A stretch of DNA of 63,570 nt, the filler included. It is 10 parts of 10 records of this genome, joined end to end, with 100 filler letters (N's around TTAATTAATTAA, not from the genome) between each part and the next. Parts side by side here need not be neighbours in the genome. Positions count along the whole stretch, not along the records: positions 11,542 to 15,574 come from SRR7504441_9292; 9 more parts are not named here. One strand, 5' to 3'. The position numbers were made by a program, and so were the translations under genes. The notes beneath the pieces were generated by a model. That model searched no databases, was not told the DNA's origin, and saw only the letters and a list, made by a program, of their open reading frames with translations. This document shows, piece by piece, positions 11,542 through 54,187 of the stretch. Numbering within the stretch: position 1 is the stretch's first letter; each line of letters opens with the position of its first letter.

Positions 11542-12103
11542 GATGCCGCGGACGAGCGGTATCATGCCGGCCAGGATCATCACTGCGCTAATCTTCATCC
11601 CAACAGTAGCTGCGGCCGGTGTGCCCGAAACTGCCGGCCGCTCGGGCTCCTGTTTGGAATAATCCAGCTCGGCTTGGTCGCACTCCAGCCCGGCGTTGGC
11701 AGCAGCCAGCGGCAGGTGAACCCCGGTGAACCCCGGGATCGAGTCCGAGACGAACGAGACCCAAACCCCGCCCACCACCAGCAGCTGCCCCCGGCTCGCC
11801 CCCCGCGGGGCACCCGGCGCACCTGGGCGGCCCGGCCCCAGAGTCCGTCCACACTGACACCGTTGCTGGCCAGGGCGCCCGAGAGGCCCATGAGCATGGT
11901 GGCGTGGGCCACGTGCTTGACGTGTCCGGTGAGCGCCAGCTTGGGGCTCTGTCCGGACTCTCGGGGGGGGGCGGGGTTAGGGTTAGGGTGAAGCCTACCT
12001 TGGCGATGGGTATGGTGAAGCCCTGGATCAGCCCCCCGGTGAAGACAATCACGCCGTGCGCCCCGAAGCACGCCGCCAGGTCGGCGCTGTCCATGCCCTG
12101 CAT
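11542..12103 (-). CDS. Hydroxylaminobenzene-mutase / styrene-oxide-isomerase-like 4-TM protein (3'-partial)
   Basis: Spliced product (introns 11949-11998 and 11785-11822) reads HGVIVFTGGLIQGFTIPIAKSPKLALTGHV...GGVWVSFVSDSIPGFTGVHLPLAA, resembling the family pattern GLLTGF..P...NPR.GL..HL as recalled. Confidence 0.6.
11974..11988 (+). repeat. Telomere-type (TTAGGG)2.5 repeat inside an intron
   Basis: GGGTTAGGGTTAGGG within the minus-strand intron 11949-11998. Confidence 0.8.
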
Positions 12104-12185: not shown

Positions 12186-13866
12186 ATGGATATGGCTCCG
12201 CCCAGTTCACCGTCACGCGGCCAGGAATGGCGCATCCTGAGCGACCGATCGCCCCAGCCGACCACCCCGGTCAAACGCTGGTCGGACGACCGGCAGGAGG
12301 ACGGAGCCCAGCGCTCGCCGCTCCGGCGGCTCAAGGCGCCGCCCAAGACAAAGATGAAGCAGGCCCGCAAGCCCAAGGACCGCTTCATCCCACGACGGCG
12401 CGACGTGGACATTGAAGTATCGCACTTCAATTTGACAAAGCCGGCGACGGTCCCCGGGGAGGAGGACGACTACGAGAAGGCGCTGTCTAGCTCGCTTCTC
12501 GGGGCAGGCTGCGCTGGAGCAGAAGACCCGCGGGGGCGCAAGTCGCGGGTGCTCAACTTCGGGGGTCCGGTGACTGGAGCAGGGATGTGCGACCAGCAAG
12601 GGACGGCCGGCTCGATCTGGTCGCTGGCCCGGCGAGACAGGGACCCGTTGGTCGGTGGACGCAAGCCCAAGCCTATGCGATACATCGCCCAGGTAGCCTG
12701 CGCTGGGCCCAGGCCGAACTGTGAGGCCAGGCCCCGGAGAGAATCCTGGACGCGCCCGAGCTGCTGGACGACTTTTACCTGAATCTACTCGACTGGAGCC
12801 AGAGAAATGTGGTTGCAATTGCGCTGGGCCAGACAGTATATATGTGGAACGCTGGGACTGGGGAGATCACCCAGCTGATGGAGACCACCGAAGAGGGGAA
12901 TCACATTACCTCAGTCCGTTGGGGTGGTGGGGGCGCCTACCTGGCAATAGGGACAAGCAACGCGAGTGTGCAGCTGTGGGACTCGGAGACTTGCCGGCAG
13001 GTGCGAGTGATGAGAGGGCACGAGGCTCGAGTAGGCGCGTTAGACTGGAACGAGCATTTGCTGTCCACTGGCAGCCGGGATTGCTCGATTCTAAACCACG
13101 ACGTGAGGGTGGCCAACCACGTTGTGAGCGCGGTCCACTCGCATAACCAAGAGGTGTGTGGGCTGCGTTGGAGCGGGAGCGGCACACAGCTCGCCTCGGG
13201 CGGGAACGACAATTTGCTCAGTATCTGGGACCTTCAGGGCTCTCAGACACGATATAATCTCACCCAGCACCAAGCGGCCGTCAAGGCGATTGCATGGTGC
13301 CCTTTTGAGCCAAACCTGCTAGCTTCAGGGGGCGGTACCGGCTCGGCTCCGAACTGGCTCACTGGGTTCAGGGACAAGCGATCGGACCATACGCTTCTGG
13401 AACACTCAGAGCGGAGCTTGTATGAACACAATAGATACCAAGTGACTGGCAAGCCTTGGCTGGTTTTGAGCATCCGGCAGGTCTCAGGTATGCTCGCTAT
13501 TGTGGTCCAAGAAGAACCGGGAGCTGCTTTCGTCGCATGGTGCTCCTGCCAGTGGGTGCGGACTGACCGGCTGGGCCGCAGGGTTTTCTCAGAATCAGCT
13601 GACGCTATGGAAATACCCCACAATGAACAAAGTGACAGAGCTCACGGGGCACACATCCAGGGTGCTGCACACAGCGCTGTCGGCTGATGGAACAACTGTG
13701 GTGAGCGCCGCAGCCGATGAGACACTCCGGTGGGTATGGATGACTCATACCGATGATGATGGCTGGTGGAAGGTTCTGGAAGGTGTTTGAGGACAGTTCT
13801 AGCAGCAAAGATCGAAGCAAACCTGAGAACCAGGCGCGGGCATCCAAACACATGTGCATCAGATAG
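12186..13866 (+). CDS. CDC20: APC/C activator CDC20/Fizzy
   Basis: C-box [35 protein letters not shown]40 repeats, LASGGGTSD, C-terminal IR tail. Five GT-AG introns of 37-43 nt. Confidence 0.95.
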
Positions 13867-14392
13867 TGGCAAGGTCGCAAGGCATGGGTCCAGGTAAGTG
13901 CCACAGGTGCCACGTCACTGTGATTGATTTAGCTCGTAATAGTTCAGTGGCCGCCCGGGTAAGTTCGCAGGTTTTAAGAAGAGGACCGGACCGGCGCTCC
14001 GCGGGTGGAGCTGATCTCGAGTATCTCACCAGGCATAGTAGCCAAACAGAAGGAGAATCGATCTACTCTGAGGATCTGATGAACCAAAAGGGATCATGGA
14101 GTTTAATCACGCACCCCATGGCGACCAGAACAGCCTCGCAAGAGCGTAGTAATACATGTACACCTTCCAATTGCAAGGAACCTTCAAGTTTGACGCCGAT
14201 TCCATGCCTTGATTTGTTATTGATTTGCTGACGCGTTGACTTTGCAATAAAGCGCATAAATTTCATGCATATATAGTTCATTACAATGTAAGCTTCAAGA
14301 CGTGCATTGTAAAGGTTAAAAGATGCACAATTGATCATTCCCTTGACCATGAAGCTTAATCGGACCCTGTCCGCTCATCATTGCCTTTGGGA

Positions 14393-15532
14393 TCAGCCGG
14401 CCTCCGGCAGGAGGTCAGCGGCGCATCGAAACCCGAGATTACCCGCCGCGCTATCCGCCGAGTTCTGGCTGCGTGCGGCCGTCCTGTACCGGTAGCAGTA
14501 GGATTTGTGGCACATGTAAGACCCTCCCTTCTTCACCTGCAGAGCGGTCAGCTCGCAGCCAGCCCGGCCACTGCCTTGTCAGTTGGGCCGGCCGGGTCTC
14601 CAGCTTTTGGGCCAGTCGGATTGCGCTGCCCTGAGTCAGCCCGGCAGACCAGCAGGGCTGCCTGCACTCCTGCGGCCGAATGCCTCGTAGTCCAAAAGTC
14701 AGCCACCCACTCCCAGGCATTCCCGAGCATGTTCTTGACGCCTGCCCCAGCTGAGCACCACCATGCCGCGAGCCACCGTATGCGTTCTGCGCCGGGTAAG
14801 CGTCTACTGGGGCCAGCCGTTCGTAGCCATCGTCGCCGGTGTTGTTCTTTGGGAACTCTCCGTGCCAAATGTTAGCCCGGTGCTCGCCGCGCGGGTGCAG
14901 CAGGTTGCCCCACGGGAAGGTCCGGTCTGCCCCACCGCTCATCCCCAGGCCTGCCGCCAGTCCAGCCGCCTTCCTTGCCGCCGCGAGCAGCCTTCTCCCA
15001 CTCAGCTTCGGTAGGCAGCCGGCGCCCCAGCCACTTGCAATAGGCCACCTGCAGCAGGCTGACATTGACCGGCCGGGCTGAGGCACCGCGTCGTTCCAGG
15101 ACACGTGCACCACCGGCTGCTGCATTCTGTCGGTGCCGATTACATCAGAGTCGACCCCTTCAGGGTGCCGCCAGGTCGCTCCGGGCACCTGCCCTCCAGC
15201 TCAGCCGCACCCGTCAAGCAGCAGCACCGGCAGCCACCACGGCGCGGCGGCCACGGCGTTGGTGATCTTGGCCGAGACCTCCGCCCGACTCAAAGGCCAC
15301 AGCCGGCGCGCATGCCTCGGGGCTGACGTGTGACTCAAAGACAAACGACCAACCGAAAGACTCGGATTCACTCTTGAAGCTAACCCGCGCTCAGTGGCGG
15401 CACCTCCGGCCCGGGCACCCGGTGGCGGCCACGAACGCGGCCCACTGGGCGTTGCTCGCCTGCCCCAGCTCAGCTCGGCCGCCCCGGGCCTGTCGCCTCG
15501 GTCTCTTCGATCTGGAAGCTATCCACATAAAC
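14393..15532 (-). CDS. SUMF1: Formylglycine-generating enzyme (sulfatase-modifying factor 1), 5'-partial
   Basis: [72 protein letters not shown]. Nine introns of 35-43 nt, at least three GC-AG. Confidence 0.95.
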
Positions 15533-15574
15533 CTGCCGGCCCGTCCCCCCCCCCCCCCCCCCCGGGGGGGGGGG

Positions 15575-25443: not shown

Positions 25444-26277
25444 ATGCGTAGAGTTGCAGGACTTGCTGCCGGGGTGGTTGGGGCTGGGGCTGCGTATATG
25501 ACCACCAAAGAGGCGCACCAGCTGCCTGCGCCGCCACCCACCCCGGTGACCAGCCCGGGGGCTGCCCTGCTGCTGCTCCTGAGCCAGGCGCAGGTGGTGG
25601 TCACCGGTCCGAGCGGGGTAGGCAAAGGCACCTTGATAGGTCGGCTGCTCGAGCAGCACCCGGACAAGGTGGGCTTCTCAGTCTCACACACCACTCGCAA
25701 GCCGCGGCCCGGCGAGGAGGAAGGGGTGCACTACCATTTCGTCTCCAAAGAAGATATGGAGGCCAAAATCGCCCGGAACGAGTTCGTCGAGTACGCTCAC
25801 GTGCAGTGCGCGCTGTGGTGCGGGCCGGGGCTGACTGGGCCGGCGCGACAGCACCAACATCTACGGTACGTCCAAGGAATCGGTCCGCAACGTGCAGGCC
25901 AAAAACAAAGTGTGCATCTTAGACATCGACACGCAGGCCGCAGCCATCCCTGACCCGGGCCTCACCTGATCGTGCAGGGTGCCAAATCCGTCAAGGCAGA
26001 TAAAGACTTTGAGGCCAGATTCATTTTCATTTCGCCACCGTCGCTGGAGGAATTAGAGGTGATCTTAGGAGTGTGTCCACGGTTGAGGGATGTGACTGTG
26101 CAGAAGCGACTCCGAGGCCGGGGCACGGAGACAGAGGAAAAGATCCAGATACGCACTGCAAATGCGAGGCACGAGATGGAAACGCTGAAGATTCCGGGTT
26201 TCTGGGACAAGGTTTTGGTGAACGCCGATCTAGAGGCCGCTAGCAAAGCGTTCAACGAGTTCATCCTAGGACAATGA
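25444..26277 (+). CDS. GUK1: Guanylate kinase with N-terminal targeting/anchor extension
   Basis: GPSGVGKGT, SVSHTTR.PRPGE..GVHYHF, NIYGTS, ILDIDTQG, FISPPS. Four introns, one GC-AG (25937-25977). Confidence 0.95.
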
Positions 26278-36189: not shown

Positions 36190-38770
36190 ATGGCGGCAAC
36201 AGCGCCCCCCAGCACACAAGATGAGCACCTCGACGAGATTCGCTCCGAGCTGGCCGATCGTAGGCGCGGCACCGGCAAGCGCGCTGGCGAAGAGAGCTGC
36301 CACATCAGGCCCTCTGTCAAGATCAAAGCAATCATCGGCCACGACAAGTGCGTCCTCCCCCTGCCTCATTGCCTCCGCGCCCCCATTCACCCAGCGCTCC
36401 CGGGCTCGGGATCACCGGCGTGGGACGGCAGGGCACAGTACTGCATATGCCGCCAGCCGGCTGACGACGCGATGCTCCAATGCTTCGATTGCAACAACTG
36501 GTTCCACATTCGGTGCGCCGTGCCGGCTGGGCGACTCGAGCCTGTTGGCAGCTGCGTCGGGTTCATAATGAAGCGCAGCCGCCGCGAGAAGTACCGGTGT
36601 GCCGAGTGCACCAGCCAGTTCAACGACGCTGAGCTCGAGCGGCAGCGACGGAGCGAAGAGGAGAAGGTGCATCGCCTCATAGAAGAGCGCGTGGGCCGCC
36701 AGCTCTGCCCGCAGCCTCGCTTGAGCCTGCCAGTTGCTGTCGCTGCGGCCAAACAGTGAGCGGGGGGTCAGGCGGTGCGGGCACGCGAGGAGGCCACCAA
36801 GAAAGCGGCTCGCAAGGTCAAGGAGAAGGCCGCTGAGGAGAAGAAGGCCCAGGTCGCCCACCACGCGCGCAGTAGGCGAGCGCGGCTCAGGTAGCGGATC
36901 CAGACCCCAAGCCAAAGCGACCGATGACCGCATGGATCCTGTACCTCAACTCTGTTCGACACGAGATCATGCGAAAGAACCCTGCTGTAGCTGGCCAGTC
37001 TGGGCTGGGCCGAGCGTGCGGGGCAGATCGACATCTGCGCGGTCACGCAGGTTGGATCGACAATGTGGCGGGTGGGTGCAAGCGAGGCTCGTGGGGCGAG
37101 CCGGACGGCAGGCGCTGGACGAGCAGGAGCGGGCTGTGTTTCTGGAGCAGGCAAGCGTGCTCAAGGAGGCGTACGATGTGGAGATGAAGAGCTACAGGAA
37201 GCGGCACCCAGAGAAGAAGGAGAAGAAGAAGATCAAGGGCCGCATGAACATCTTAATCGATCAGTACTTCCAGGAGATCAGCAAAAAGGAGAAGCCTGCG
37301 CCCAAGGCGGTGCCTACACCCGGTTAGGCTGTCGCGACCGGTGGGGAACAGAAAATCGAGTCGAGGAGCGCCAAGCGAGCCAAACTCTCTCAGCGGGATG
37401 CGAACAAGCCGATCCAAATGTCCGAGAGTCAGATGCGGGTGCCCTGCTGCGGGACGTTGCTGACGGCTGGCGCAGGAGCTGGAAGCGCAGGTGTTCAGCC
37501 TAGCCCCGATGATGCCGGACCACTCTTACATGGAGTTCACCGTGTGCCTAGCCCCGTCCAAGGACGGTGCTGACGTGGTGTCTCCTGTGGACGACATGAT
37601 AGCCACAATGCAGTGCCTGGCTCACGACTATCCTGCGCTCTCCTCGGCGTGCGAGCAGGCCTCCAGTGCCAAAAGGACGTTTGACATGAAGGCAATGAGC
37701 GACGCTGTCGAGCTGTTCAACGCCACGATGATGTTCGTAAACCCTTCCAAGGACAGCAACTCTGCGCTTGTGGCCACGCCTCCAAACGCAGCCCAGACAC
37801 TCCATCTGCAGAACCAGGTCACGACCCGAGCTGCCAGCCGCCTGAGCCGGCTGGGCAGGTGTACCACCAGGTGATCAAGAACCCGCTCGCTCTGAACGTT
37901 TACAAAGGTTTCAGCGACGAGGTACCCGAGCAGCCGTGGCTGCCTGGCCGAGCTGGCGACAGGTGTACGGAGAAGCGCAGCACCCGCTGATCAGCGAGCT
38001 GATCCAGACTGTGCCGATCACCAAGGAGATGGTGTTCGTGGACCTTGGCAGTGGGATCGGGCAAGTGGTGATGCAAGTGGCGGCTCAGGCTCAGTGCAAG
38101 CAGTCAGTTGGGATTGAGATCTCCGACACTCCGTCCAGCTACGCCGAGCAGATGGCCACGGCGTTTAGGGAGCAAATGATCCGGTACAGCAAGAGCCACG
38201 GCTCGTTCGATCTGATCCGCGGGAGCTTCTTGGACCCAGCTGTGCTCTCTTCAGCGCTGCTCAGTCAAGCAGATATTCTCTTCGTCAACAACGTGGCGTT
38301 CACAGCCGAAACCAACCAGCAGCTGCTCGAGCGCTTCAGCGCGCTCAAGGAGGGGGCGAAGATCATCTCGATGCGCTCGTTTGCCACACAGGTGGGCGGG
38401 CGGGGCCGGGTGGCCACTTCGAACAACAAGAGCTTTAAGTTCCGATGCAGCTGCGGGATGACTGGGATCTCCAAGAAGTCCCCCGACCTGGTGGATTGCA
38501 TACAGTGCGGGGTCTGGCAGCATCGCCAGTGTGCCGGAGTCTCTTCTGAGAAGGAGGCGGCTGTGTTCATGTGCAAGCAATGTCTTCACTACATGAAGGT
38601 AGGCCCACGGGCTGGCGCCGAACTGAGCTGGCTTGCAGAAACAAGTCAACATGGACGCCGGCATGTCGATGGATGTGCTGGGGCCGTTCCATTCCAAGTC
38701 GCAGAATGCTGTCTCGTGGACCTCGGCGCCGGTGAGCTATTTCATCCACACGATCCACCGGAAGTTATGA
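36190..38770 (+). CDS. DOT1: Histone H3K79 methyltransferase DOT1 with PHD finger, HMG box and a second, inserted PHD finger
   Basis: YCICRQP..MLQCFDCNNWFHIRC (PHD); PKRPMTAWILY...W.AL (HMG); QVY....P..LNVY..FSDEVYGE, FVDLGSGIGQVV, FVNN.AF, VSWT..PVSYFIHTI (DOT1). Confidence 0.92.
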
Positions 38771-38938: not shown

Positions 38939-40759
38939 TCACCTCATGAGCTCCTCTAGTTCCTCCAAAAGCTGCGGCTCTTTGGCCAGTTTGGCCAGCT
39001 GGTCCTCATTATACGGTCCGCCTTTGTCTTTAGTCTCAGTGATCTGCCGAAGCGTGCGCTGGATTTTCTTAATCTTCTTCTGCTTCACCAGCTCCGGATC
39101 CTCTTCCACGACCTCCTGCTCGGCCGGCGCCGGCTCTACTGCCTCCGGCTCAGGTTTGGGCGCTGCACTCTCGCCAGCCTCTGCTGCGGCTGCTGCGGCT
39201 CGCTTCTTGGCCTCCCGCTTCTTCTGGTTCTTGAGTGCAGCCTTGGACAGTGGCACGTTCGGGTCCTTCTTGTTCTCTACCTTGCGCGGGCCGACAGCCG
39301 ACGCCCCGGTGCCGCGCTCGGCATCGAGCATCTCGCGCACCCTCGCAGCGTTGGCTTCGCCACCCTTGCCGCGCGCGCTCGGGGGCACGTACTTGCCGGC
39401 CTTGGCCTGGGTGGCATTAGCATTAACTCCGGCTGCCCGGCCCGGGCTGATAGCCCGGTCTGGGTAACTGCCCCGGAGAGCTGGTGCCCAGCCCATCTGG
39501 TAAAGCTCCTCCGTGGACTGCTCATGCTCAAGCACGCCGTGGTACGAGAACATCTTGAAGCAGAAGTCGGTCCGCCGGCGAGGGGCGGTCACCGCTGTGG
39601 CCAGGTGCCGCGAGTCGGGCGACCAGCGTGCCTCGACTGCGTATCTCGAGTTGGCGGCGCCGACCTTCTTGAGACTCTTAGTGTCCCAGAACTCGATGTC
39701 GCCGTTGAGAGACCCAAAGCCGGCCAGGGCCACGAACCGGCAGTGCGGGCTCCAGAGCACCGTGTTGACCGCCATGTTACCAAACTCGAAGCGAGGGAGG
39801 CACTTTTCTCCGAACAAGGTGGCCTTGCCTGGCATGAAGCCGTAGATCACAATAAAGTCGGTGCCCGATGGCGCCCACTGCACATCGTGCACCGGGCCCT
39901 CCTTGTCCAGCGGCACCTGCTGGGTGCCCTTGCCGTCCGCCTGGATGTAGTACAGCTGGCACTCGCCGTAGTAACTCTTGTTCTGAGCATCGGAGGCGCA
40001 GTCGGCCTTGGCAATCAGCACTTTGCCGTTGGGCTGCCAGAGAAAGCTGCACATCTCGGCCCGGAAGAAGGAGGTCTGGGCCACCGGCTGCAGGTCTATG
40101 CTCACTTGGTCCAACTCGCCGAACGAGAACACCTTTACAAACGCCGGCATACCCTTGAGCGGCGGTGTGAAGGTGGCCACTTTGTACGGCTGACGGCCCG
40201 GCGCCACCGAGCAGCTGGCCACGTCACTCACCCGGATCCGGGCGTCCGGGGCGTCTGCGGGCCGGTTGGCGTTGAGGATCACTTCGTTGGTCCGGGTCCG
40301 GGCCACAATCGCCTCATCCGCGCTCCAGAAAACCTGCGGCCAGACGTCCCGCGGGCTATCGCGCGAGCTCCACCGGCTGACCGGCTCGGCAGAGGCCAGG
40401 TCCCAGGCCACCATGTTGGGCTCGGAGTTCTGTGGCGTCCAGCGAGACCAGGCCACCAGCACCGCCCCCGAGGGCGAGAACGAGAGCCCGAGCGCCCCCG
40501 GGTGCGGGATGGTCTGGATCTGCGCGACCGTGCCCGAGCTCGGGTCTGTCTCGAACACGCCGATGCTCTCAGCGCTTGCGACCGCGAGCAGTCGGCCGTC
40601 GGGCGAGTAGCTGCTCCGGGCGTGCGGGTCGGACCCGCCCGGGATCTCGGAGCAGGTCTCCACAGGCGGGGCCGCATCCCGGACCGTCGGCACCCGAAAC
40701 CCGCGGGTGCCCGACGCGCCCCGGATAAACCCAGTCACAAAAGGAGGGATCTCAGCCAT
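38939..40759 (-). CDS. EIF2A: Eukaryotic translation initiation factor 2A
   Basis: KSYYGE, LDKEGPVHDV.W.P, VIYGFMP, LAGFGSLNG.IEFWD, WSPD....TA.TAPR, YVPP.AR; intronless. Confidence 0.95.
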   Translation of the reverse strand: MAEIPPFVTGFIRGASGTRGFRVPTVRDAAPPVETCSEIPGGSDPHARSSYSPDGRLLAVASAESIGVFETDPSSGTVAQIQTIPHPGALGLSFSPSGAVLVAWSRWTPQNSEPNMVAWDLASAEPVSRWSSRDSPRDVWPQVFWSADEAIVARTRTNEVILNANRPADAPDARIRVSDVASCSVAPGRQPYKVATFTPPLKGMPAFVKVFSFGELDQVSIDLQPVAQTSFFRAEMCSFLWQPNGKVLIAKADCASDAQNKSYYGECQLYYIQADGKGTQQVPLDKEGPVHDVQWAPSGTDFIVIYGFMPGKATLFGEKCLPRFEFGNMAVNTVLWSPHCRFVALAGFGSLNGDIEFWDTKSLKKVGAANSRYAVEARWSPDSRHLATAVTAPRRRTDFCFKMFSYHGVLEHEQSTEELYQMGWAPALRGSYPDRAISPGRAAGVNANATQAKAGKYVPPSARGKGGEANAARVREMLDAERGTGASAVGPRKVENKKDPNVPLSKAALKNQKKREAKKRAAAAAAEAGESAAPKPEPEAVEPAPAEQEVVEEDPELVKQKKIKKIQRTLRQITETKDKGGPYNEDQLAKLAKEPQLLEELEELMR

Positions 40760-42088: not shown

Positions 42089-44968
42089 ATGCAGGAGGGC
42101 CACCGGAGTACAGGCTCCTACCGGCCTGGTGGGGCACGCCCCCCTGCACGCCACGGTGGTTCCCACGTTCTGGCGCTGCCGCTCGCGCTCGTGGTGGCGG
42201 CCTGCACCAGCGATGCCTCGGCCACGACGGTGCTGCGGCTCGGCAGCGCCACGGTCGGCGTGGACTGGGCCCTGTCGAATCGCAACGGCAGCATCCGAGC
42301 CGCTGCCCGAGTGCCCGGCTGCGCCCATACCGACCTCCTGGCCGCGGGGGTCATCGGCGAGCCGAACTTCGGGCGTAATACCGAGCTGCAGCGGTGGGTG
42401 GCGTCCGAGAGCTTTTCGTACCGTGCCTCGTTCTCGGTCCCCGCGCTCGTGCTCGCGCACCGGAACGTCGACCTGCAGCTCAGCGGGCTGGACACTGCTG
42501 TGGCCGTGGCCCTCAACCACCGGCCTGTACTCTCCGCCGCCAACATGCATCGCACTTTCCTCGTGGACGCGCACGGGCTGCTGGAGCCGAACAACACGCT
42601 GGAGTTCTCGTTCACTGGGCCGGTGCCCGCGTCGCTGGCGGCGGAGGCGGCGTGCGTGGCAAAGCACGGCCCGCACTGCGCCGATCGCGCCTGCGTCTGC
42701 CCGTCTGCCTGGGCGGGCCCCGCGCCACAGCCGCTGTTGATCAACGCCTACCTCCGCAAGGAGCAGCAGTCGTTCTCATGGGACTTCGCCCCCGCAACAG
42801 GCACGAGCGGCGTCACTGCGGAGCCGATGGTGGTGGGTTATGACACAGCGCTGCTCCGTGACTTGGTGATCGACACCCAACCGCTGACAGCCGAGCGTAC
42901 AACTGGCTGGCACGTGACCGTCGCTGTCCGGCTGTGGAGCAGTCGCGGGCCGGTGCCCGGCGCCGCTGACGCCACGCTCGTGGCTAGCATGGCCGAACTC
43001 GGCGCAAGCGCAACGGAGCCAGTAAAGATCGCTGTCGGAGAGACGGTCCAGACCCTGCATCTGACCATTGCCGCCGGCGCGGGCGTGAAGCGCTGGTGGC
43101 CGAATGGATACGGCGAACAGCACACCTACAGCCTGATCGTTTCTCTCGACGTCGGACGGAACCAGACGCAGACGAAGACGGCACGGGTCGGCTTCCGAAC
43201 CATCGTGATCGATCAGCCGGCATTGCCGGAGGGGCACGGCGACGGACACCTGTTTCGGTACGTGGTGAACGGACAGCCGATCTGGGCCCGAGGTTCAAAT
43301 TTCGTACCGGCAGAGAGCCTGCAGCCACGTGTCACTCGGCGGGAGCTGCGCCGCCTCTTCGACGCATATTCTGCGGCTCACTTCACGAGCCTGCGAGTGT
43401 GGGGTGGAGGCGTGTATGCCTCTGATGATTTCATGGAGCTGGCCACTCAGAGTGGCATCATCGTTTCGCACGACTTTATGTTTGGAGACCAGTTCTACCC
43501 AACGGACGGTGACTTTCTTCGGGACGTTGCGGCAGAGGTGAAGGATCAAGCGTGGCGCCTCGGCCATCACACATCCCTCGGCGCGTGGTTTGCGAACAAT
43601 GAGATGGCCGCGGGGTACAGCGACGACCATCATCTCTTCACCGCGCAGAGGCAGTATTCGCAACTCTACTTCGAGACCATCCACGGAAACCTCACGAGCG
43701 TTGACCCGTATCGAGTCTGGATGAGCTCCACTCCGGCACAGGGCAACGAGACACCAGCCGTACCTTACAACAGAGGTGGCTCCGAAGTGGAGCTCCGTGG
43801 CGATATGCATTTCTACGGCTTCCCGGACGACGATTGCTGGAATGTTTCTGCCTATCCGCGAGCCCGCTTCATCACTGAGTCAGGATTTGAGTCGTTCCCT
43901 TCTTTCATGACGATGGCTCCGACGCTTGCCAAAACCGATTACGGTTTCAATGCATCAGTGCCTGCGTCGCGCCAGCAGCACCCGCATGGGCAGCAGCAGA
44001 TCGCGCACAACGTCGAGTCGAACTGGCGCTGGCCGGACCGTTGGCCGAACAACAGCGCGTCGGGCTATCGAGACGAGCTCTGGATGACGCAGGTCGCGGC
44101 ATCGCAGTGCCTGACGGCCGCCGTGGAGTTCTGGCGCGGTACAAGTGATGAGTTGATCAACACCACCTACCCACTCTCACCCCTTGGCTGGGCGATGCTC
44201 GGCGGCAACGCTGGCGTGCTGTACTGGCAGGCCGATGACACCTGGCCCGGTCCGTCGTGGTCAACGATCGAGCTCGGCGGCCGACTTAAAGTGGGGCATT
44301 ACAGCATGCAGCGCGCCTTCGCACCGTTGCTGGTCGCGGGCCGGATCCACGAGGGTGTGCTGGCCGTCCGCTTCTCTAACCACGGGAGAAGGAGCCTCGG
44401 AGCCAGCGCATCTCTACGCTGCACTGCTTACAAGTGGTCAGGCGGTGTAGCGGGCACTCCGCTGACGCATACAGTTGTGCTGCCGGCAGCGCACGCTTCG
44501 TCACTGCTGCTAAGAGCAAGCCTGGCTGAGGTCTTGCGCAGCACTGGCTGTCCGGACCGCACCCAGTGCGTGCTGGCGCTGGATGTCACAACGGCCCAGG
44601 GCGATCGATTGGCGAGCAATTGGGTCTATCTGTCGCCCTTCCACCAAGTTTCGTCAATGATTGCGTCTCCGGCGCTCGCTGTGCACGGCGTGGCGCGGGC
44701 GAGCCCACCCGCGGACCGTGCAGACCTGCGCAGCTTCAACCTGACTATCGTAGCGCAGCGCATCCCTGTGGCAGTTGTGTGGCTCGAGACCAAACTGCCC
44801 GGCCGTTTCAGCGACAACGGCTTCCTAATGGTGGCGCACGAACGGCAGCTGCAGTGGACCACAGACGAGGTGGCGGTTACCGCGAGCCAGCTCGGCGCGA
44901 GCCTTTCGGTCAGATCTTTGGTCGACGTGTCACCAGGCTACACAGCCCAGGGCTCAACGCGTGCTTGA
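42089..44968 (+). CDS. MANBA: Beta-mannosidase (GH2)
   Basis: VPGCAHTDL, GLDT, RKEQQSFSWDFAP, WWPNGYGEQ, RGSNFVP, LRVWGGGVY, NNE, RFITESGF, LYWQ..D.W...SWS; intronless. Confidence 0.93.
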   Translation: MQEGHRSTGSYRPGGARPPARHGGSHVLALPLALVVAACTSDASATTVLRLGSATVGVDWALSNRNGSIRAAARVPGCAHTDLLAAGVIGEPNFGRNTELQRWVASESFSYRASFSVPALVLAHRNVDLQLSGLDTAVAVALNHRPVLSAANMHRTFLVDAHGLLEPNNTLEFSFTGPVPASLAAEAACVAKHGPHCADRACVCPSAWAGPAPQPLLINAYLRKEQQSFSWDFAPATGTSGVTAEPMVVGYDTALLRDLVIDTQPLTAERTTGWHVTVAVRLWSSRGPVPGAADATLVASMAELGASATEPVKIAVGETVQTLHLTIAAGAGVKRWWPNGYGEQHTYSLIVSLDVGRNQTQTKTARVGFRTIVIDQPALPEGHGDGHLFRYVVNGQPIWARGSNFVPAESLQPRVTRRELRRLFDAYSAAHFTSLRVWGGGVYASDDFMELATQSGIIVSHDFMFGDQFYPTDGDFLRDVAAEVKDQAWRLGHHTSLGAWFANNEMAAGYSDDHHLFTAQRQYSQLYFETIHGNLTSVDPYRVWMSSTPAQGNETPAVPYNRGGSEVELRGDMHFYGFPDDDCWNVSAYPRARFITESGFESFPSFMTMAPTLAKTDYGFNASVPASRQQHPHGQQQIAHNVESNWRWPDRWPNNSASGYRDELWMTQVAASQCLTAAVEFWRGTSDELINTTYPLSPLGWAMLGGNAGVLYWQADDTWPGPSWSTIELGGRLKVGHYSMQRAFAPLLVAGRIHEGVLAVRFSNHGRRSLGASASLRCTAYKWSGGVAGTPLTHTVVLPAAHASSLLLRASLAEVLRSTGCPDRTQCVLALDVTTAQGDRLASNWVYLSPFHQVSSMIASPALAVHGVARASPPADRADLRSFNLTIVAQRIPVAVVWLETKLPGRFSDNGFLMVAHERQLQWTTDEVAVTASQLGASLSVRSLVDVSPGYTAQGSTRA

Positions 44969-46388: not shown

Positions 46389-48806
46389 ATGGCCAGTGCG
46401 GAGAACGACGAGAAGGCCTCGGAGCAGGTGGCGCCCGGCCCGGGGGAGCCGCTCACCCCGGATGTGCTGACAGCTGCTCGATGCCCCGCCAGCGTGGGCT
46501 GCCAGCGTCACCTGGGTGGATGGCGAGTGCAGCATGACCCTCCCGGTGCGCGCTCGGGGCCTGGCCGGCCCTGACTGCCGCAGGACGCGGAATCCACGCG
46601 GGACATCACCGTCACCCCGATGCAGGAGCGGGGCCTCGAGGTCAAGGTGCGCCCACCAGCCGCTGCCGCCCGGAGCGGCTGCAGGTGAAGGAGGAGGCCT
46701 GGATCCTCCAGTTGCCCGCGCGGATAGAGGACAGCCGAATCTCGATACAGTTTGACACACACCTCCGGGTGCTCCGGGTCCGGCTCTCCGATAAGTCGGT
46801 GGAAGAGAGCGCCGGCGCCCTGGAGCGGATGAGACTCAAGGTGCCCCCCCGGCCGGCTGTGCCGACCGGCGACAGGCGGACGAGAACGCCGAGTTGGATC
46901 GGACTTGGTGCGACCGGCGGGCCATGTTTGGCGAGAGTACCCGGCGCGCGCTGGCCAGCCATCACGGGAATGGCAGTGTGTGAGTTTGTTCCACTCCGGC
47001 TTTCGCCAGACGAGCGCGCAACGCTCAAGGTGTCTCTTTCTCACGGCGCAGCCGAGGCGCTGATTGGCTCCCAGGTGGTCCAAGGCGCGCTCGAGGTGTC
47101 GGAGTACACGGATGTGGTGGATTGCTACCACGGGATGAGCCTGCAGGCCTCTGGGTACCGCGGGTTTGGCTTCCACGGCGGCGGGCTCGGATACGGGACA
47201 CGGTCGTCTTCATCGACCAAGGCCAACAAGATCGTCGCCCAGCTCGAGGACATGCTGGCCACCTGCAGCGGGCTGGAGCTGGCCAGCCATTATAAGCGCG
47301 GCAAGGCGCTGGTGTGTGGTAATTCTTTCAGGAGCAACGCGGAGTTCTTTGGCGAAGCATTCGAACTTTCCCGGAGGCGAGCACTCGTCTGATCCCGGCT
47401 GAGCCACCCGCAGGTTTAAAGTCACCAATCCGACCCAGATGCGCTCGAGCTACGGCAAGATGATGTACATGCTGCAGGATTCGCGAGCCGGCGGTGGCTC
47501 GAGCTGTGGCGTGCCTGAGCGGAGCGCAGATCCTCTCGGGTTTGAACTTGTTTACCCCCTCAGGACAGTGCATTCGCTGTTGGCCGACAAGGGCGGGCTG
47601 GAGCTCCTAGCGGATCCGGATCTGGAGGCGGCCACCACCCCGATTTTGTTTGAAGATCCGGAGCAAATGAAGCAGGAGGCTGAGCGTAAAGCCGAAGCCA
47701 AGACGAGGCTTTGCTCAGCGTACGCTTCTAATACTCTCTCCAGGCAGTGCAGCCGCGCCGGCTGGGACTCAGGCTGCCGGCTACAGCGATGACATCGAGC
47801 AGTGCCTCTACTCGATCAGCGATGGGATGACTTATGCCGCATCAAACACTCGCCCGGTGATCCTCCCGTTTGACTGCACGGATGAGCAGCTGCAGGTTGC
47901 CAAGATGATCAGCTATCTAAAGAAATACTTCGGAGGTGACGTCCCGAGCAAATACTCACTCGCCATCCGGAGCGGTTGTTGGGCATGCCTGGTCATTTCT
48001 GAGCCTTGCTCACAGGCCGGGGCGGGTCGTGTTTGTCCCACAACCACACCACGCAATACACGTTCGTGCTCCAGTCGCTCACACTGTGGCGCGAGATCAT
48101 GTCCAAGCTGTACCGGTGCTGGCACGCCGCAGACGCTGACCTGCTCTCTGCGCGGCACACATACCGTCTGGTCAACACCGGACAGGTTCCGATCAGCTTG
48201 GCCCGGGCCTGATTGCCGCTGATCTCAGGGCCTCAACCGAGTGCAGTCAGCCCCAAATGTCTCGCACTTGATGCAGTCCATATTGTCTAAAGTGCAGCGC
48301 GAGGTGAGTGATTGCTGCTGGGCGTGACTGACACGGCTGTGTCAGGCGGGGGGCTGGGTCGGGCTGAGTGTGGTTCACCTTGGGGATCGCGACGTGCCGA
48401 ACGCGCTGTGGTTTATTGACAAGTATAACCAGGTTCCGGGCCGCTAAATCGGGCCTCGAGTGCTGGGCTAGGTGCCTCTGATTCTAGGTCCGCTGGCCAA
48501 TGTGCTCGAGCAATTGGACGAACTAGCAACAGACCCCGGTGCGTAGCGGCTCACGAGCTGCCGGCTCTCACGCACGTTACAGGGGTGGCTGGATATTTGG
48601 AGCGGATGTTTGGTGGAGTTCACGAAGCCAAGATGGAGATCCTGTGCGATTTCTTCAAGCACGCGTTTGATGGGAGCGGAGACGATGGCGGGTCGTGCAT
48701 TGATGGCCGCCTGACTTCGGCATGGAACTGGTGCTCAAAGATTTCAAAGAAAAAATACTACAATGTGTTCCTGCTTGCCGGCTTTAAGTCATTCGACGGA
48801 GCTTAG
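46389..48806 (+). CDS. UPF0652/DUF2009-family protein with N-terminal HSP20/CS-like domain
   Basis: FVPLRL...ER..L....[78 protein letters not shown]. About 13 short introns link the N-terminal exons in frame. Confidence 0.88.
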
Positions 48807-52814: not shown

Positions 52815-54187
52815 ATGAAGCGCAAGCTGGGGACAGTCTGCGTGCACGCTGGGGAGCAGATCCACCCTGGGTACCCCTCGGCCCAGCCGGCCGCTCACCC
52901 GCGTGCAGCGGACACGGGGCCATCGTCACCCCGATCGTCACAGCCAGCAGCTTCATATCGCCGGGTCCCGGGTCCGACCCCGAGTTCTGCTACGCCCGCT
53001 GCCAGAACCCGACTCGGCTGGCCTACGAGACCGCGCTGGCCGAGCTGGAGGCCGGGGCGTGCTGCTGCGCCACCGCCTCGGGGCTGGCGGCAATCAGCCT
53101 GGCGCTCGACTTGTTGCCGAGTGGGGCGCACGTGCTGGTACATTCGGGGGTGTATGGCGGGACCCACAGGCTGTTCGAGACGGTCCGCCGACCGGCCGCC
53201 GGGAATCAGTTCAGCTACGTCGATTTGACCGACCTCGAGTCGGCGCGCGCTCAGGTGCGTCCCGAGACGGCGATGATATGGGCGGAGAGCCCCACAAACC
53301 CGTTGCTGCAGCTGCTGGACTTGCCAAAGATCTGCAGCTGGGCGGCCGAGCTGAGCCGGGGCCGGGCGCAGCCGATTCTGGTGGGCGTTGACAATACGTT
53401 CTGCACTGGCTGGAACCAACAGCCGCTCTCTATGGGGGCGCACCTTAGCGTGCTATCGGTGCTGCCGTCTGGCTGATAGCCCAGCTGAGCGTGCGGGACA
53501 GACCAGCAAGTATATCGGGGGGCACTCGGATCTGATCGGGGGCGCGGTGGTGGTCAATGAGCCTGAGCTCGCCGCCCGCGCCCGACAGCTGAGCAAGGCA
53601 GTCGGGGCTGTCCAAGGCCCGTTCGATTGCTACCTTGCGCTCCGTGGGATGAAGACCCTCGCGATACGGCTCGAGCGGCAGAGCAGCAACGCGCTCCGGC
53701 TGGCCGAGTGGCTCACCTCTGACGCGAACCCACTGGCTGGAAAGCTCGCCGAGGTGTGCACTGGGGGTCGGGGCGATTCGAGCAGGGGCAGGTCCGGTAC
53801 CCTGGGCTGAGCAGCCACCCTCAGCACGAGCTTTGCAAGGCCCAGATGCGGTCGGGCGGGGCGGTGGTGACTGTGCGGCTGTGGGTGGCGCCAGAGATGG
53901 CCGAGGAGTCCCAGGTGGAGTTAGTCGGGCGGTTTGTGGGTCAGCTGAAGGTGTGGACACTAGCTGAGAGCCTGGGTGGGGTGGAGAGCATGGTGAACCA
54001 TTCGGCCAGCATGTCGCACGGAGGGATGAGCAGGGAACAGCGGGCCGAAATCGGTAGCAGGCACACATGCGGGCTGGGCTGAGGGAGGTTTGCAGGGATA
54101 TTCGACACGACGCTGCGGCTGAGCGTGGGGATTGAGGACGTGGAGGACCTGATTCAAGACATCCAACGTGGCCTCGAGGCGCTCTAG
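52815..54187 (+). CDS. Cystathionine gamma-lyase/synthase family PLP enzyme
   Basis: YAR..NPTR, ASGLAAI, YGGT, ESPTNP, VDNTF, STSKYIGGHSD (PLP Lys), LRGMKTL, LAESLGGVES, LRLSVGIE; four GT-AG introns. Confidence 0.95.

What the first reader, a model, noticed from the sequence alone, without database searches (positions are those of the whole stretch)
12693..15532. Genome-wide tiny, G-rich, nearly signal-less introns suggest a length-ruler spliceosome
Seen (example interval CDC20/SUMF1, but true in all intron-bearing contigs): introns cluster at 35-48 nt, maximum about 56 apart from three outliers. Donors are heterogeneous after GT (GTGCC, GTGCG, GTGGC, GTACC, GTCGC, GTTGT; GTRAG is rare). There is no polypyrimidine tract, and 3' ends are often GGGGCAG. 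A branch-like motif roughly 10-16 nt upstream is frequently CTGAG/CCGAG/GTGAG rather than YTRAY. Inference: recognition depends mostly on length plus branch-to-AG distance, possibly with divergent U1/U2/U6 or U2AF.
Basis: partly seen in the sequence, partly recalled or inferred. Interest (0 to 1): 0.7.

Follow-up and report, generated by a model that had tools for sequence, protein, structure and literature searches.

The report
Uniformly tiny GC-rich introns, RNA-confirmed
A GC-rich marine protist, possibly a telonemid, breaks its genes with many real introns only about 40 bases long that have weak but recognisable splice signals and no pyrimidine tract; this is an unusual variant of a known kind of genome, not proof of a new splicing machine.

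Summary
The window is 10 short contigs of a GC-rich marine eukaryote. RNA contigs from four marine metatranscriptome runs skip 10 segments of 35-50 nt in contig 3. Five lie in CDC20, three in SUMF1/FGE and two in an upstream gene. Eight are GT..AG and two are GC..AG.

Colinearity with an intronless bacterial homologue and with Pfam/PDB coordinates supports 14 more on contigs 3, 4, 7 and 8. The 24 supported introns average 40.0 nt (sd 3.5), and 7 have GC donors.

The signals are weak but present:
- Donor: AG|GYR.
- Branch-like motif: YTSAS, with its A 10-13 nt before the 3' end.
- Acceptor: GCAG|G.
- Polypyrimidine tract: none.

The "length-ruler / divergent snRNA" idea could not be tested. No snRNA or U2AF gene lies in the window and no genome is held.

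Best reading: ordinary U2-type introns at minimal length, recognised across the intron. eIF2A points to Telonemia, but one gene conflicts. I found no paper describing such introns in that group. This is a new variant of a known kind, of moderate interest.

The parts
12405..13866 (+). CDC20/Fizzy gene, the part colinear with relative P0001. Exons 12405-12692, 12731-13334, 13372-13441, 13481-13539, 13582-13729, 13773-13866 (stop at the end).
   Evidence: P0001, 92% identical over exon 2, aligns across every junction; RNA contigs.
12693..12730 (+). CDC20 intron 1, 38 nt, GT..AG
   Evidence: RNA joint in run X1; boundaries fixed; P0001 colinear.
13335..13371 (+). CDC20 intron 2, 37 nt, GT..AG, CTCAC 10 nt before the 3' end
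   Evidence: RNA joints in X1 and X5, two studies.
13442..13480 (+). CDC20 intron 3, 39 nt, GT..AG, TTGAG motif
   Evidence: RNA joints in X1 and X2.
13540..13581 (+). CDC20 intron 4, 42 nt, GT..AG, CTGAC motif. Length is a multiple of three with no in-frame stop.
   Evidence: RNA joints in X1 and X2; frame read.
13730..13772 (+). CDC20 intron 5, 43 nt, GT..AAG acceptor. Spliced in one RNA contig and retained in another.
   Evidence: Joint in X2; X5 record 11 (13718-13956) runs through it.
14268..14268 (+). Probable CDC20 poly(A) addition site
   Evidence: X2 contig ends here with a loose A-run (table 7).
14393..15574 (-). SUMF1/formylglycine-generating-enzyme gene, cut by the contig end. Exons 15497-15574, 15419-15459, 15316-15379, 15228-15278, 15087-15188, 14970-15048, 14777-14926, 14662-14741, 14575-14625, 14393-14536.
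   Evidence: Successive exons map to FGE-sulfatase profile positions 71-101, 102-129, 125-176, 179-198, 217-254; PDB 1y4j_A residues 57-77 and 98-126; RNA contigs.
14537..14574 (-). SUMF1 intron, 38 nt, GC..AG, CTGAC motif
   Evidence: RNA joint in X6. The only GY..AG placement allowed by the joint is GC..AG.
14626..14661 (-). SUMF1 intron, 36 nt, GC..AG, CTGAC motif, in frame and without a stop
   Evidence: RNA joints in X1 and X6, two studies.
14742..14776 (-). SUMF1 intron, 35 nt, GT..AG, CTCAG motif
   Evidence: RNA joints in X1 and X6; Pfam positions 176 to 179 contiguous.
14927..14969 (-). SUMF1 intron, 43 nt (or 40 nt), GC..AG
   Evidence: Pfam coordinates of the two flanking frames overlap here. 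All 11 frame-keeping candidates have GC donors. No RNA cover.
15049..15086 (-). SUMF1 intron, 38 nt, GT..AG
   Evidence: FGE profile positions 101 to 102 contiguous.
15189..15227 (-). SUMF1 intron, 39 nt, GT..AG, CTGAG motif
   Evidence: The 17-residue exon between it and the next intron exactly fills the gap 78-94 in PDB chain 1y4j_A.
15279..15315 (-). SUMF1 intron, 37 nt, GC..AG as modelled (an in-frame GT alternative of 49 nt exists)
15380..15496 (-). Two further predicted SUMF1 introns (15380-15418, 39 nt; 15460-15496, 37 nt, GC donor) around a 41-nt exon
   Evidence: Gene finder only; no independent support.
11785..11822 (-). Intron of the upstream minus-strand gene, 38 nt, GT..AG
   Evidence: RNA joint in X2.
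11949..11998 (-). Intron of the upstream minus-strand gene, 50 nt, GT..AG. This is the longest supported intron.
   Evidence: RNA joint in X5.
25806..26103 (+). Guanylate kinase gene: introns 25806-25851 (46 nt), 25940-25977 (38 nt, GC donor; 41 nt is also possible) and 26059-26103 (45 nt, in frame, no stop)
   Evidence: Successive exons map to Guanylate_kin profile positions 4-73, 77-104, 105-129, 131-179.
47377..48015 (+). DUF2009-family gene: introns 47377-47413 (37 nt, GC donor, no in-frame GT alternative), 47708-47747 (40 nt, GC donor), 47975-48015 (41 nt)
   Evidence: Successive exons map to DUF2009 profile positions 18-92, 94-181, 195-244, 248-302.
52871..54095 (+). Cys/Met-metabolism PLP enzyme gene: introns 52871-52908 (38), 53459-53501 (43), 53754-53791 (38), 54054-54095 (42), all GT..AG
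   Evidence: Intronless bacterial homologue P0126 aligns 21-197 | 198-268 | 277-382, with a 14-residue gap exactly over the last intron.

Best explanation
These are ordinary major-type (U2-type) spliceosomal introns of a GC-rich, compact marine protist genome. They have been reduced to about the shortest workable length.

SHOWN:
- They are absent from mature RNA.
- They begin GT or GC and end AG.
- Their lengths are packed into 35-46 nt.
- They are dense: nine in about 1.2 kb of SUMF1, and about 1.9 per kb of coding sequence overall in my models.

INFERRED, how they are recognised. The intron is recognised as one unit across its own length (intron definition) through three short signals held at nearly fixed spacing:
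- An exon-end AG followed by GYR.
- A branch-like YTSAS motif (most often CTGAG or CTGAC) about 25-30 nt downstream of the donor.
- The first CAG lying about 10-13 nt (up to 16) beyond the branch adenosine, usually as GCAG|G.

The branch-to-AG gap leaves no room for a polypyrimidine tract. The 3' site is therefore probably chosen by distance from the branch rather than by U2AF65 binding a tract. The high GC pressure of the genome probably explains the degenerate +3 to +6 donor positions and the 29% GC donors.

The narrow length peak is most simply the result of deletion bias pushing introns down to a steric minimum. It need not be a dedicated measuring device.
For: RNA removal:
- 10 joints in RNA contigs of 4 runs from 3 studies. 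Termini are GT/GC..AG.

Reality of a further 14 introns:
- P0001 colinearity.
- Colinearity with the intronless bacterial homologue P0126.
- Contiguous exon coordinates in Pfam/PDB.

Length:
- 24 supported introns, mean 40.0, sd 3.5.
- The flat-prior gene finder peaks at 34-46 nt, binomial p about 1e-24 or smaller against a uniform distribution.

Signals:
- -1 G 21/24, +3 R 22/24, -3 C 22/24, -4 G 18/24.
- TGAGC is 5.5-fold and CTGAG 5-fold enriched in intron interiors over exons.
- The motif PWM scores 6 bits or more in 38 of 74 introns, against 7% of shuffled interiors and 15% of exon decoys. Its A lies 10-13 nt from the 3' end in 26 of those 38.
- A pattern match with A at 10-13 nt occurs in 16 of 21 supported introns.
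- Cross-validated discrimination gives AUC 0.968.

No polypyrimidine tract: Y fraction 0.44, T fraction 0.18.

Precedents:
- GC donors as a GC-pressure effect: 56-65% GC donors in Emiliania huxleyi (PMC4028052, passages read).
- Splicing of short introns with truncated tracts without U2AF: human SPF45-dependent introns (PMC8363638, abstract read).
Against: - No branch point was mapped. The YTSAS motif is a statistical inference, its PWM was trained on the same introns it scores, and most of the 74 introns were selected with splice-site PWMs built from the supported ones, so searches are optimistic.
- 5 of 21 supported introns lack a pattern match at 10-13 nt.
- The base after the putative branch A is G in 43 of 74 introns. 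In the canonical model, which I recall rather than tested, that position pairs with a G of U2. This hints that U2 or its pairing register may differ.
- Sequence plus spacing does not uniquely specify the introns. 56 of 12,295 decoys outscore the median real intron, and a simple grammar matches almost as often on the antisense strand of genes (131 against 149). Some further information source is missing from this account.
- One RNA contig retains intron 13730-13772.
- RNA support exists for contig 3 only. 'Genome-wide' rests on 63 kb.
Confidence: 0.72

Rival explanations
1. A remodelled spliceosome. The lineage has given up extended U1/U6 pairing with the donor and U2AF65 recognition of a pyrimidine tract. 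Its U2 branch-pairing box has co-evolved with a YTGAG branch site. Intron ends are paired essentially by fixed spacing.
For: - No conservation at donor +4 to +8.
- Mean 4.5 of 9 matches to the canonical donor consensus.
- G rather than a pyrimidine after the putative branch A in 43 of 74 introns.
- No pyrimidine tract.
- Both sub-distances are tightly bounded.
- The signal grammar is frequent by chance.
- Human G-rich ultra-short introns with poor sites were taken by their authors to imply an unknown mechanism (PMC4463651, abstract read).
Against: - Nothing about the machinery could be examined: no snRNA hit in the window and no genome held.
- AG|GYR, YTSAS and CAG are degenerate forms of the canonical signals, not new ones.
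- PWMs discriminate well (AUC 0.968).
- Short introns without tracts and with weak donors are handled by conventional spliceosomes in other organisms (own knowledge).
Confidence: 0.2
2. The introns are recent copies of an intron-generating mobile element (introner-like), which would explain their uniform size and shared motifs.
For: Uniform length and recurring GGCTGAGC-like cores. A bacterial-type PLP enzyme gene carries four of them, which implies intron gain in this lineage or a donor.
Against: Among 2,628 intron pairs the best ungapped identity over 30 nt is 0.67, the same maximum as in shuffled controls. Mean identity is 0.360 against 0.345. No terminal repeats or target-site duplications were noticed. 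At 40 nt the introns are far shorter than described introners (own knowledge).
Confidence: 0.04
3. The 'introns' are artefacts: assembly errors, deletion polymorphisms between strains, or products of my own and the first reader's gene modelling.
For: - The RNA evidence is assembled contigs from metatranscriptomes laid at 90% likeness or more, not raw reads from this organism.
- DNA can be present in RNA libraries (caveat printed).
- Two of my predicted introns were wrong.
Against: - All 10 skipped segments have GY..AG ends and restore the reading frame of conserved proteins.
- 3 are seen in two independent studies.
- Strain deletions would not carry splice consensus or fall at exactly the points where homologues are colinear.
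Confidence: 0.02

Closest known systems
Genomes with uniformly ultra-short spliceosomal introns (Paramecium and other ciliates about 25 nt: PMC5014332, search listing and start of abstract only; Bigelowiella nucleomorph 18-21 nt and Stentor about 15 nt: recalled)
   Same: Nearly all introns fall in a very narrow size class close to a lower limit, with GT..AG ends, no room for a pyrimidine tract, and many introns per gene.
   Different: Those genomes and introns are AT-rich with a well conserved GTA donor (recalled). Here the introns are 68% GC, about 40 nt, degenerate after GYR, and 29% have GC donors.
Human G-rich ultra-short introns (37-65 nt) and SPF45/RBM17-dependent short introns with truncated pyrimidine tracts (PMC4463651 and PMC8363638, abstracts read)
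   Same: The size range overlaps (35-50 nt). They are G-rich, with poor conventional splice or branch sites and a truncated or absent pyrimidine tract. A U2AF-independent 3' site route has been shown in human cells.
   Different: In humans these are a rare subset among long introns. Here they seem to be the only class. Whether an SPF45-like factor acts here is untested.
GC..AG-dominated splicing in the GC-rich haptophyte Emiliania huxleyi (PMC4028052, passages read)
   Same: A GC-rich genome in which GC donors are far above the <1-2% typical of animals, fungi and plants (PMC7072748, passages read). Acceptors stay AG. Intron retention was also observed.
   Different: GC donors are a majority there (56-65%) and 7 of 24 here. 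E. huxleyi introns are not ultra-short (recalled). The lineage is different.
BOC1 introns of Mamiellophyceae (small introns of the low-GC outlier chromosome region of Ostreococcus and Micromonas; recalled, and named in earlier scan notes e1-560374 and e1-562429)
   Same: Marine picoeukaryote, 40-65-nt introns at high density, with atypical signals.
   Different: Those introns are AT-rich and confined to one genomic compartment. Here they are GC-richer than the exons (0.68 against 0.63) and occur on every contig with multi-exon genes. eIF2A does not place the organism in green algae.
Intron definition of short introns in Drosophila, fungi and nematodes (PMC5762160, search listing only; otherwise recalled)
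   Same: Splice sites are paired across a short intron. The length optimum is sharp. In nematodes the introns are about 47 nt without a clear branch consensus.
   Different: Those systems keep either a strong donor (GTAAGT/GTATGT) or a strong U-rich acceptor (TTTCAG). This one has neither.

Membership tests
U2-type (major) spliceosomal introns, GT/GC-AG class | The segment is absent from mature RNA while present in DNA | tested here: met
   10 joints in RNA contigs of 4 runs. One contig retains one of the introns.
U2-type (major) spliceosomal introns, GT/GC-AG class | GT or GC at the 5' end and AG at the 3' end | tested here: met
   24 of 24 supported introns: 17 GT, 7 GC, all ending AG.
U2-type (major) spliceosomal introns, GT/GC-AG class | Branch-site adenosine in a YTNAY-like motif upstream of the 3' site | tested here: inconclusive
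   A YTSAS motif is enriched and positioned 10-13 nt from the 3' end. No branch was mapped, and the base after the A is more often G than a pyrimidine.
U2-type (major) spliceosomal introns, GT/GC-AG class | Polypyrimidine tract between the branch and the 3' site (metazoan and plant form of the class) | tested here: not met
   Y fraction 0.44 and T fraction 0.18 at -4..-15, with G preferred at -4 to -8. The tract is not universal in the class (own knowledge).
U2-type (major) spliceosomal introns, GT/GC-AG class | Removal by U1/U2/U4/U5/U6 snRNPs | not testable with these tools
   No snRNA in the window; no genome held.
U12-type (minor) introns | Extended donor RTATCCTT and a TCCTTAAC-like branch site (motifs recalled) | tested here: not met
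   None of the 24 supported donors begins GTATC or ATATC (list).
Ultra-short-intron genomes (ciliate / nucleomorph type) | Genome-wide unimodal, very narrow intron length distribution near a minimum | tested here: met
   sd 3.5 nt in 24 supported introns. Only 63 kb were examined.
Ultra-short-intron genomes (ciliate / nucleomorph type) | AT-rich introns with a conserved GTA(A/T) donor | tested here: not met
   Introns are 68% GC. +3 is G in 13, A in 9 and T in 2 of 24, and +4 shows no preference.
Introner-like elements | Families of near-identical intron sequences | tested here: not met
   Maximum pairwise identity 0.67, equal to the shuffled maximum. Window only.
Mamiellophyceae BOC1 introns | AT-rich small introns restricted to a low-GC chromosome region of a mamiellophyte | tested here: not met
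   Introns are GC-richer than exons. The best named eIF2A relative is Telonema subtile at 66%, while green-lineage hits are 40% or lower.
SPF45-dependent / U2AF-independent short introns | Short intron with a truncated pyrimidine tract | tested here: met
SPF45-dependent / U2AF-independent short introns | Splicing requires SPF45 in place of the U2AF heterodimer | not testable with these tools
   No such gene was found in the window; this needs the genome and experiments.

The most novel reading that the evidence does not exclude
A deep-branching marine lineage, possibly Telonemia, runs a spliceosome that no longer reads a polypyrimidine tract or the donor beyond GYR. It pairs a YTGAG branch site with a co-varied U2 box and selects both splice sites by fixed distance from the branch. 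This would be a natural, genome-wide version of the U2AF-independent route known only for a minority of human short introns.
Probability: 0.18. Interest if true: 0.7.

Novelty: new variant of a known kind. Interest (0 to 1): 0.5.

Why it matters
Genomes whose introns are all near a minimal length are natural experiments on how little information a spliceosome needs. The known examples are AT-rich with strong donors. This one combines about 40-nt introns with 68% GC, a donor reduced to GYR, roughly one GC donor in four, a G-rich stretch where the pyrimidine tract should be, and an off-consensus branch motif.

If the organism is a telonemid, these would be the first intron data I could find for that phylum. 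My searches found no paper on telonemid nuclear gene structure.

There is also a practical consequence. Standard gene callers that expect GT donors and longer introns will mis-annotate such genomes. My own finder missed GC-donor and in-frame stop-free introns.

Tried and rejected
- Whole-genome access: none is held.
- Rfam on the window found nothing at gathering score or at E<=1. There are no tRNAs.
Only contig 3 could be laid, so RNA support is limited to that contig. Parts of contig 3 without RNA cover say nothing.
- First gene-finder versions were useless. A codon-only model mis-joined exons. A self-training version ran away to 975 'introns' and was discarded.
- The later finder still made errors. 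It called coding sequence 14992-15034 an intron, placed a 34-nt intron where 46 nt fits, and missed in-frame stop-free introns. The 57 prediction-only introns are therefore used for trends only.
- A negative correlation between the two sub-distances was rejected as evidence for a whole-intron ruler. It follows arithmetically from the small variance in total length and from mis-assigned motifs.
- Depletion of lengths divisible by three could not be judged. 6 of 24 supported introns have such lengths, and the finder is biased against them.
- Lineage: CDC20 was uninformative. Beta-mannosidase pointed to a cluster holding a Bicosta minor (choanoflagellate single-cell) protein, which conflicts with the Telonema hint.
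- The metagenome scan for relatives of P0001 found nothing. I did not use the extra scan.
- Earlier scan notes held nothing on this genome or on look-alike sequence.
- Supplementary files of papers were not available. Supplements of PMC9903769 and PMC12768974 might list related genomes or intron statistics that I could not see.
Full report
WHAT THE WINDOW IS

The 63,570 bases are ten short contigs (3-10.7 kb) joined by N-spacers. GC content is 0.55-0.66. No whole genome is held. Parts of contig 3 occur in marine metatranscriptomes and metagenomes of several studies. The window holds no tRNA and no Rfam family, either at gathering score or at E<=1.

CHECKING THE OBSERVATION WITH RNA

Read laying accepts only N-free stretches.

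- Ten joints appeared, skipping 35-50 nt.
- After allowing for the ambiguity of each cut, eight are GT..AG.
- Two, both in SUMF1, can only be GC..AG.
- Five joints are in CDC20 (12693-12730, 13335-13371, 13442-13480, 13540-13581, 13730-13772).
- Three are in SUMF1 (14537-14574, 14626-14661, 14742-14776).
- Two are in a minus-strand gene upstream (11785-11822, 11949-11998).
- Five of the ten joints are seen in two runs and three in two studies.
- One X5 contig (13718-13956) runs through intron 13730-13772. That intron is therefore sometimes retained, or the contig is pre-mRNA or DNA.
- An X2 contig ends in an A-run at 14268, the likely CDC20 poly(A) site.

INDEPENDENT SUPPORT FROM HOMOLOGY

- CDC20: a relative's protein (P0001, 92% identical over exon 2) aligns without gaps across all five introns.
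- PLP enzyme gene at 52815-54187: the intronless bacterial homologue P0126 aligns 21-197 | 198-268 | 277-382. A 14-residue gap lies exactly over a 42-nt segment. This gives introns of 38, 43, 38 and 42 nt.
- DUF2009 gene: successive exons map to profile positions 18-92, 94-181, 195-244 and 248-302.
- SUMF1: successive exons map to FGE-sulfatase profile positions 71-101, 102-129, 125-176, 179-198 and 217-254. Two short exons hit PDB chain 1y4j_A at 57-77 and 98-126, and the 17-residue gap between them is exactly filled by a predicted 17-codon exon. One SUMF1 intron can only have a GC donor: 11 of 11 frame-keeping candidates do.
- Guanylate kinase: revised exons map to positions 4-73, 77-104, 105-129 and 131-179. 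This reveals a 46-nt intron, a GC-donor intron, and a 45-nt in-frame, stop-free intron.

THE SUPPORTED SET

There are 24 supported introns on contigs 3, 4, 7 and 8.

- Lengths are 35-50 nt, mean 40.0, sd 3.5. 23 of 24 lie in 35-46.
- 17 donors are GT and 7 are GC.
- Donor context: -2 A/C (22/24), -1 G (21/24), +3 purine (22/24), and nothing beyond.
- Acceptor context: -4 G (18/24), -3 C (22/24), AG, +1 G (15/24).
- Composition: G 0.39, C 0.29, T 0.18, A 0.13.
- Pyrimidine fraction at -4..-15 is 0.44.
- GTRAG donors: 0 of 24.
- Six have lengths divisible by three. By my reading of the frames, three of them carry no in-frame stop.

PREDICTIONS FOR THE REST OF THE WINDOW

I wrote a Viterbi gene finder.

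- With a flat length prior of 18-400 nt, 26-35 of 52-77 predicted introns fell in 34-46 nt. About 2-2.6 would be expected if lengths were uniform (binomial p about 1e-24 or smaller).
- The longer predictions were mostly composites. For example, a 184-nt 'intron' in CDC20 spans three real exons.
- With a length prior the finder gave 75-93 introns in 28-29 genes and recovered 12-13 of the 14 introns supported at that stage.
- The three remaining long calls (125, 235, 261 nt) resolve into chains of 35-47-nt introns at a looser penalty.
- The finder made known errors. The 57 prediction-only introns are therefore used for trends only.
- Intron density in these models is about 1.9 per kb of coding sequence, and 19 of 28 genes have introns.

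SIGNALS

- TGAGC and CTGAG are 5.5- and 5-fold enriched in intron interiors relative to exons. An EM-refined 7-mer converges on GCTGAGC.
- That motif scores 6 bits or more in 38 of 74 introns, against 7.3% of shuffled interiors and 15.4% of GY..AG decoys in exons. Its A lies 10-13 nt from the 3' end in 26 of those 38. The PWM was trained on the same introns, so this is optimistic.
- A looser pattern finds such a motif with A at 10-13 nt in 16 of 21 supported introns.
- In the ten supported introns with a clear motif, the 5'-to-A distance is 25-30 nt and A-to-3' is 10-15 nt. Both segments are individually bounded.
- AG dinucleotides lying 5-7 nt after the A are skipped in two supported introns, 15189-15227 and 54054-54095 (sequences printed).
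- The base after the putative branch A is G in 43, C in 20, A in 6 and T in 5 of 74. This departs from the usual pyrimidine.

HOW INFORMATIVE THE SIGNALS ARE

- PWMs cross-validated by contig separate the 74 introns from 12,295 same-length decoys in the same transcripts, with AUC 0.968.
- Yet 56 decoys outscore the median real intron.
- A regular-expression grammar of donor, spaced motif and CAG matches 347 times, against 265 +/- 15 in first-order Markov simulations. Inside genes it matches 149 times on the sense strand and 131 on the antisense strand.
- So the signals are real but of low information, and spacing contributes much of the specificity. 'Nearly signal-less' overstates it.

G-RICHNESS

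Introns are GC-richer (0.68) than exons (0.63) and intergenic DNA (0.54). G exceeds C, but exons show a similar skew. GGG and CCC runs are both about twice as dense as in exons. The distinctly G-rich part is -4 to -8.

WHAT THE INTRONS ARE NOT

- Not U12-type: no RTATCC donors.
- Not an introner-like family: maximum pairwise identity is 0.67, as in shuffles.
- Not plausibly artefacts: GY..AG ends, frame restoration and two-study support all argue against it.

LINEAGE

- eIF2A (38939-40759, a single exon) has as best named relative Telonema subtile from EukProt at 66% identity. All other named hits are 40% or lower.
- CDC20 is uninformative.
- Beta-mannosidase (42089-44968) is closest (57-63%) to unnamed marine proteins. 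One of those clusters contains a Bicosta minor single-cell-genome protein. This conflicts with the Telonema hint, or reflects contamination or gene transfer.
- I rate a telonemid or related origin at about 0.6.
- Searches for telonemid nuclear genomes or introns found no such description. PMC9903769 states that Telonemia is not represented among its Tara MAGs (passage). PMC12432456 deals with mitochondrial genomes only (passages).

COMPARISON WITH WHAT IS KNOWN

- Uniform ultra-short introns are known in ciliates (PMC5014332, listing only) and, from my own knowledge, in nucleomorphs and Stentor. Those are AT-rich with strong donors.
- Human ultra-short G-rich introns with poor sites (PMC4463651, abstract) and SPF45-dependent short introns with truncated tracts (PMC8363638, abstract) are the nearest mechanistic parallel. 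They are a minority class.
- Abundant GC donors in a GC-rich genome are known from Emiliania huxleyi (PMC4028052, passages). The usual frequency is below 1-2% (PMC7072748, passages).
- Intron-rich marine mirusviruses use CYSAC/CTGAC branch consensus, with introns peaking near 80 bp (PMC12768974, passages).
- The combination seen here is, as far as my searches reach, undescribed.

VERDICT

- The mechanism is most likely conventional U2-type splicing by intron definition at minimal length.
- The machinery-divergence hypothesis remains open and is directly testable once snRNA and U2AF genes of the organism are available.

Noticed in passing
window 15546-15574: Contig 3 ends in a run of about 16 C followed by 10 G. 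This looks like a sequencing or assembly artefact and should not be read as SUMF1 coding sequence.
   Followed up: no
window 11949-11998 (minus strand): The 50-nt RNA-confirmed intron contains two tandem copies of the telomere-like hexamer CCCTAA followed by a C-run. It is the only supported intron above 46 nt.
   Followed up: no
window 52815-54187: The Cys/Met-metabolism PLP enzyme is most similar (55-56%) to gammaproteobacterial enzymes (Yersinia, Vibrio) and to two dinoflagellate transcriptome proteins, yet it carries four tiny introns. It is possibly a horizontally acquired gene that later gained introns.
   Followed up: partly
window 13730-13772: One RNA contig (X5 record 11, 13718-13956) retains this 43-nt intron while another (X2) lacks it. 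This is intron retention, pre-mRNA, or DNA in the library.
   Followed up: no
window 13540-13581, 14626-14661, 26059-26103: Three supported introns have lengths divisible by three and no in-frame stop. Retention would insert 12-15 residues rather than truncate the protein. ORF-based gene callers cannot see such introns.
   Followed up: partly
window 42089-44968: The nearest named relative of this single-exon beta-mannosidase sits in a cluster with a protein from a choanoflagellate (Bicosta minor) single-cell genome. That disagrees with the Telonema affinity of eIF2A. It may be contamination of that dataset, gene transfer, or a wrong lineage guess.
   Followed up: partly
window 13867-14392: CDC20 and SUMF1 are convergent. 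The probable CDC20 poly(A) site (14268) lies only about 125 nt from the SUMF1 stop codon (14393-14395), which indicates a compact genome.
   Followed up: no
window 36891-37309: An HMG-box in the DOT1/PHD gene appears to be split by two predicted 40-nt introns around a 15-codon exon. Only the first part (profile positions 1-24) was confirmed by Pfam.
   Followed up: partly
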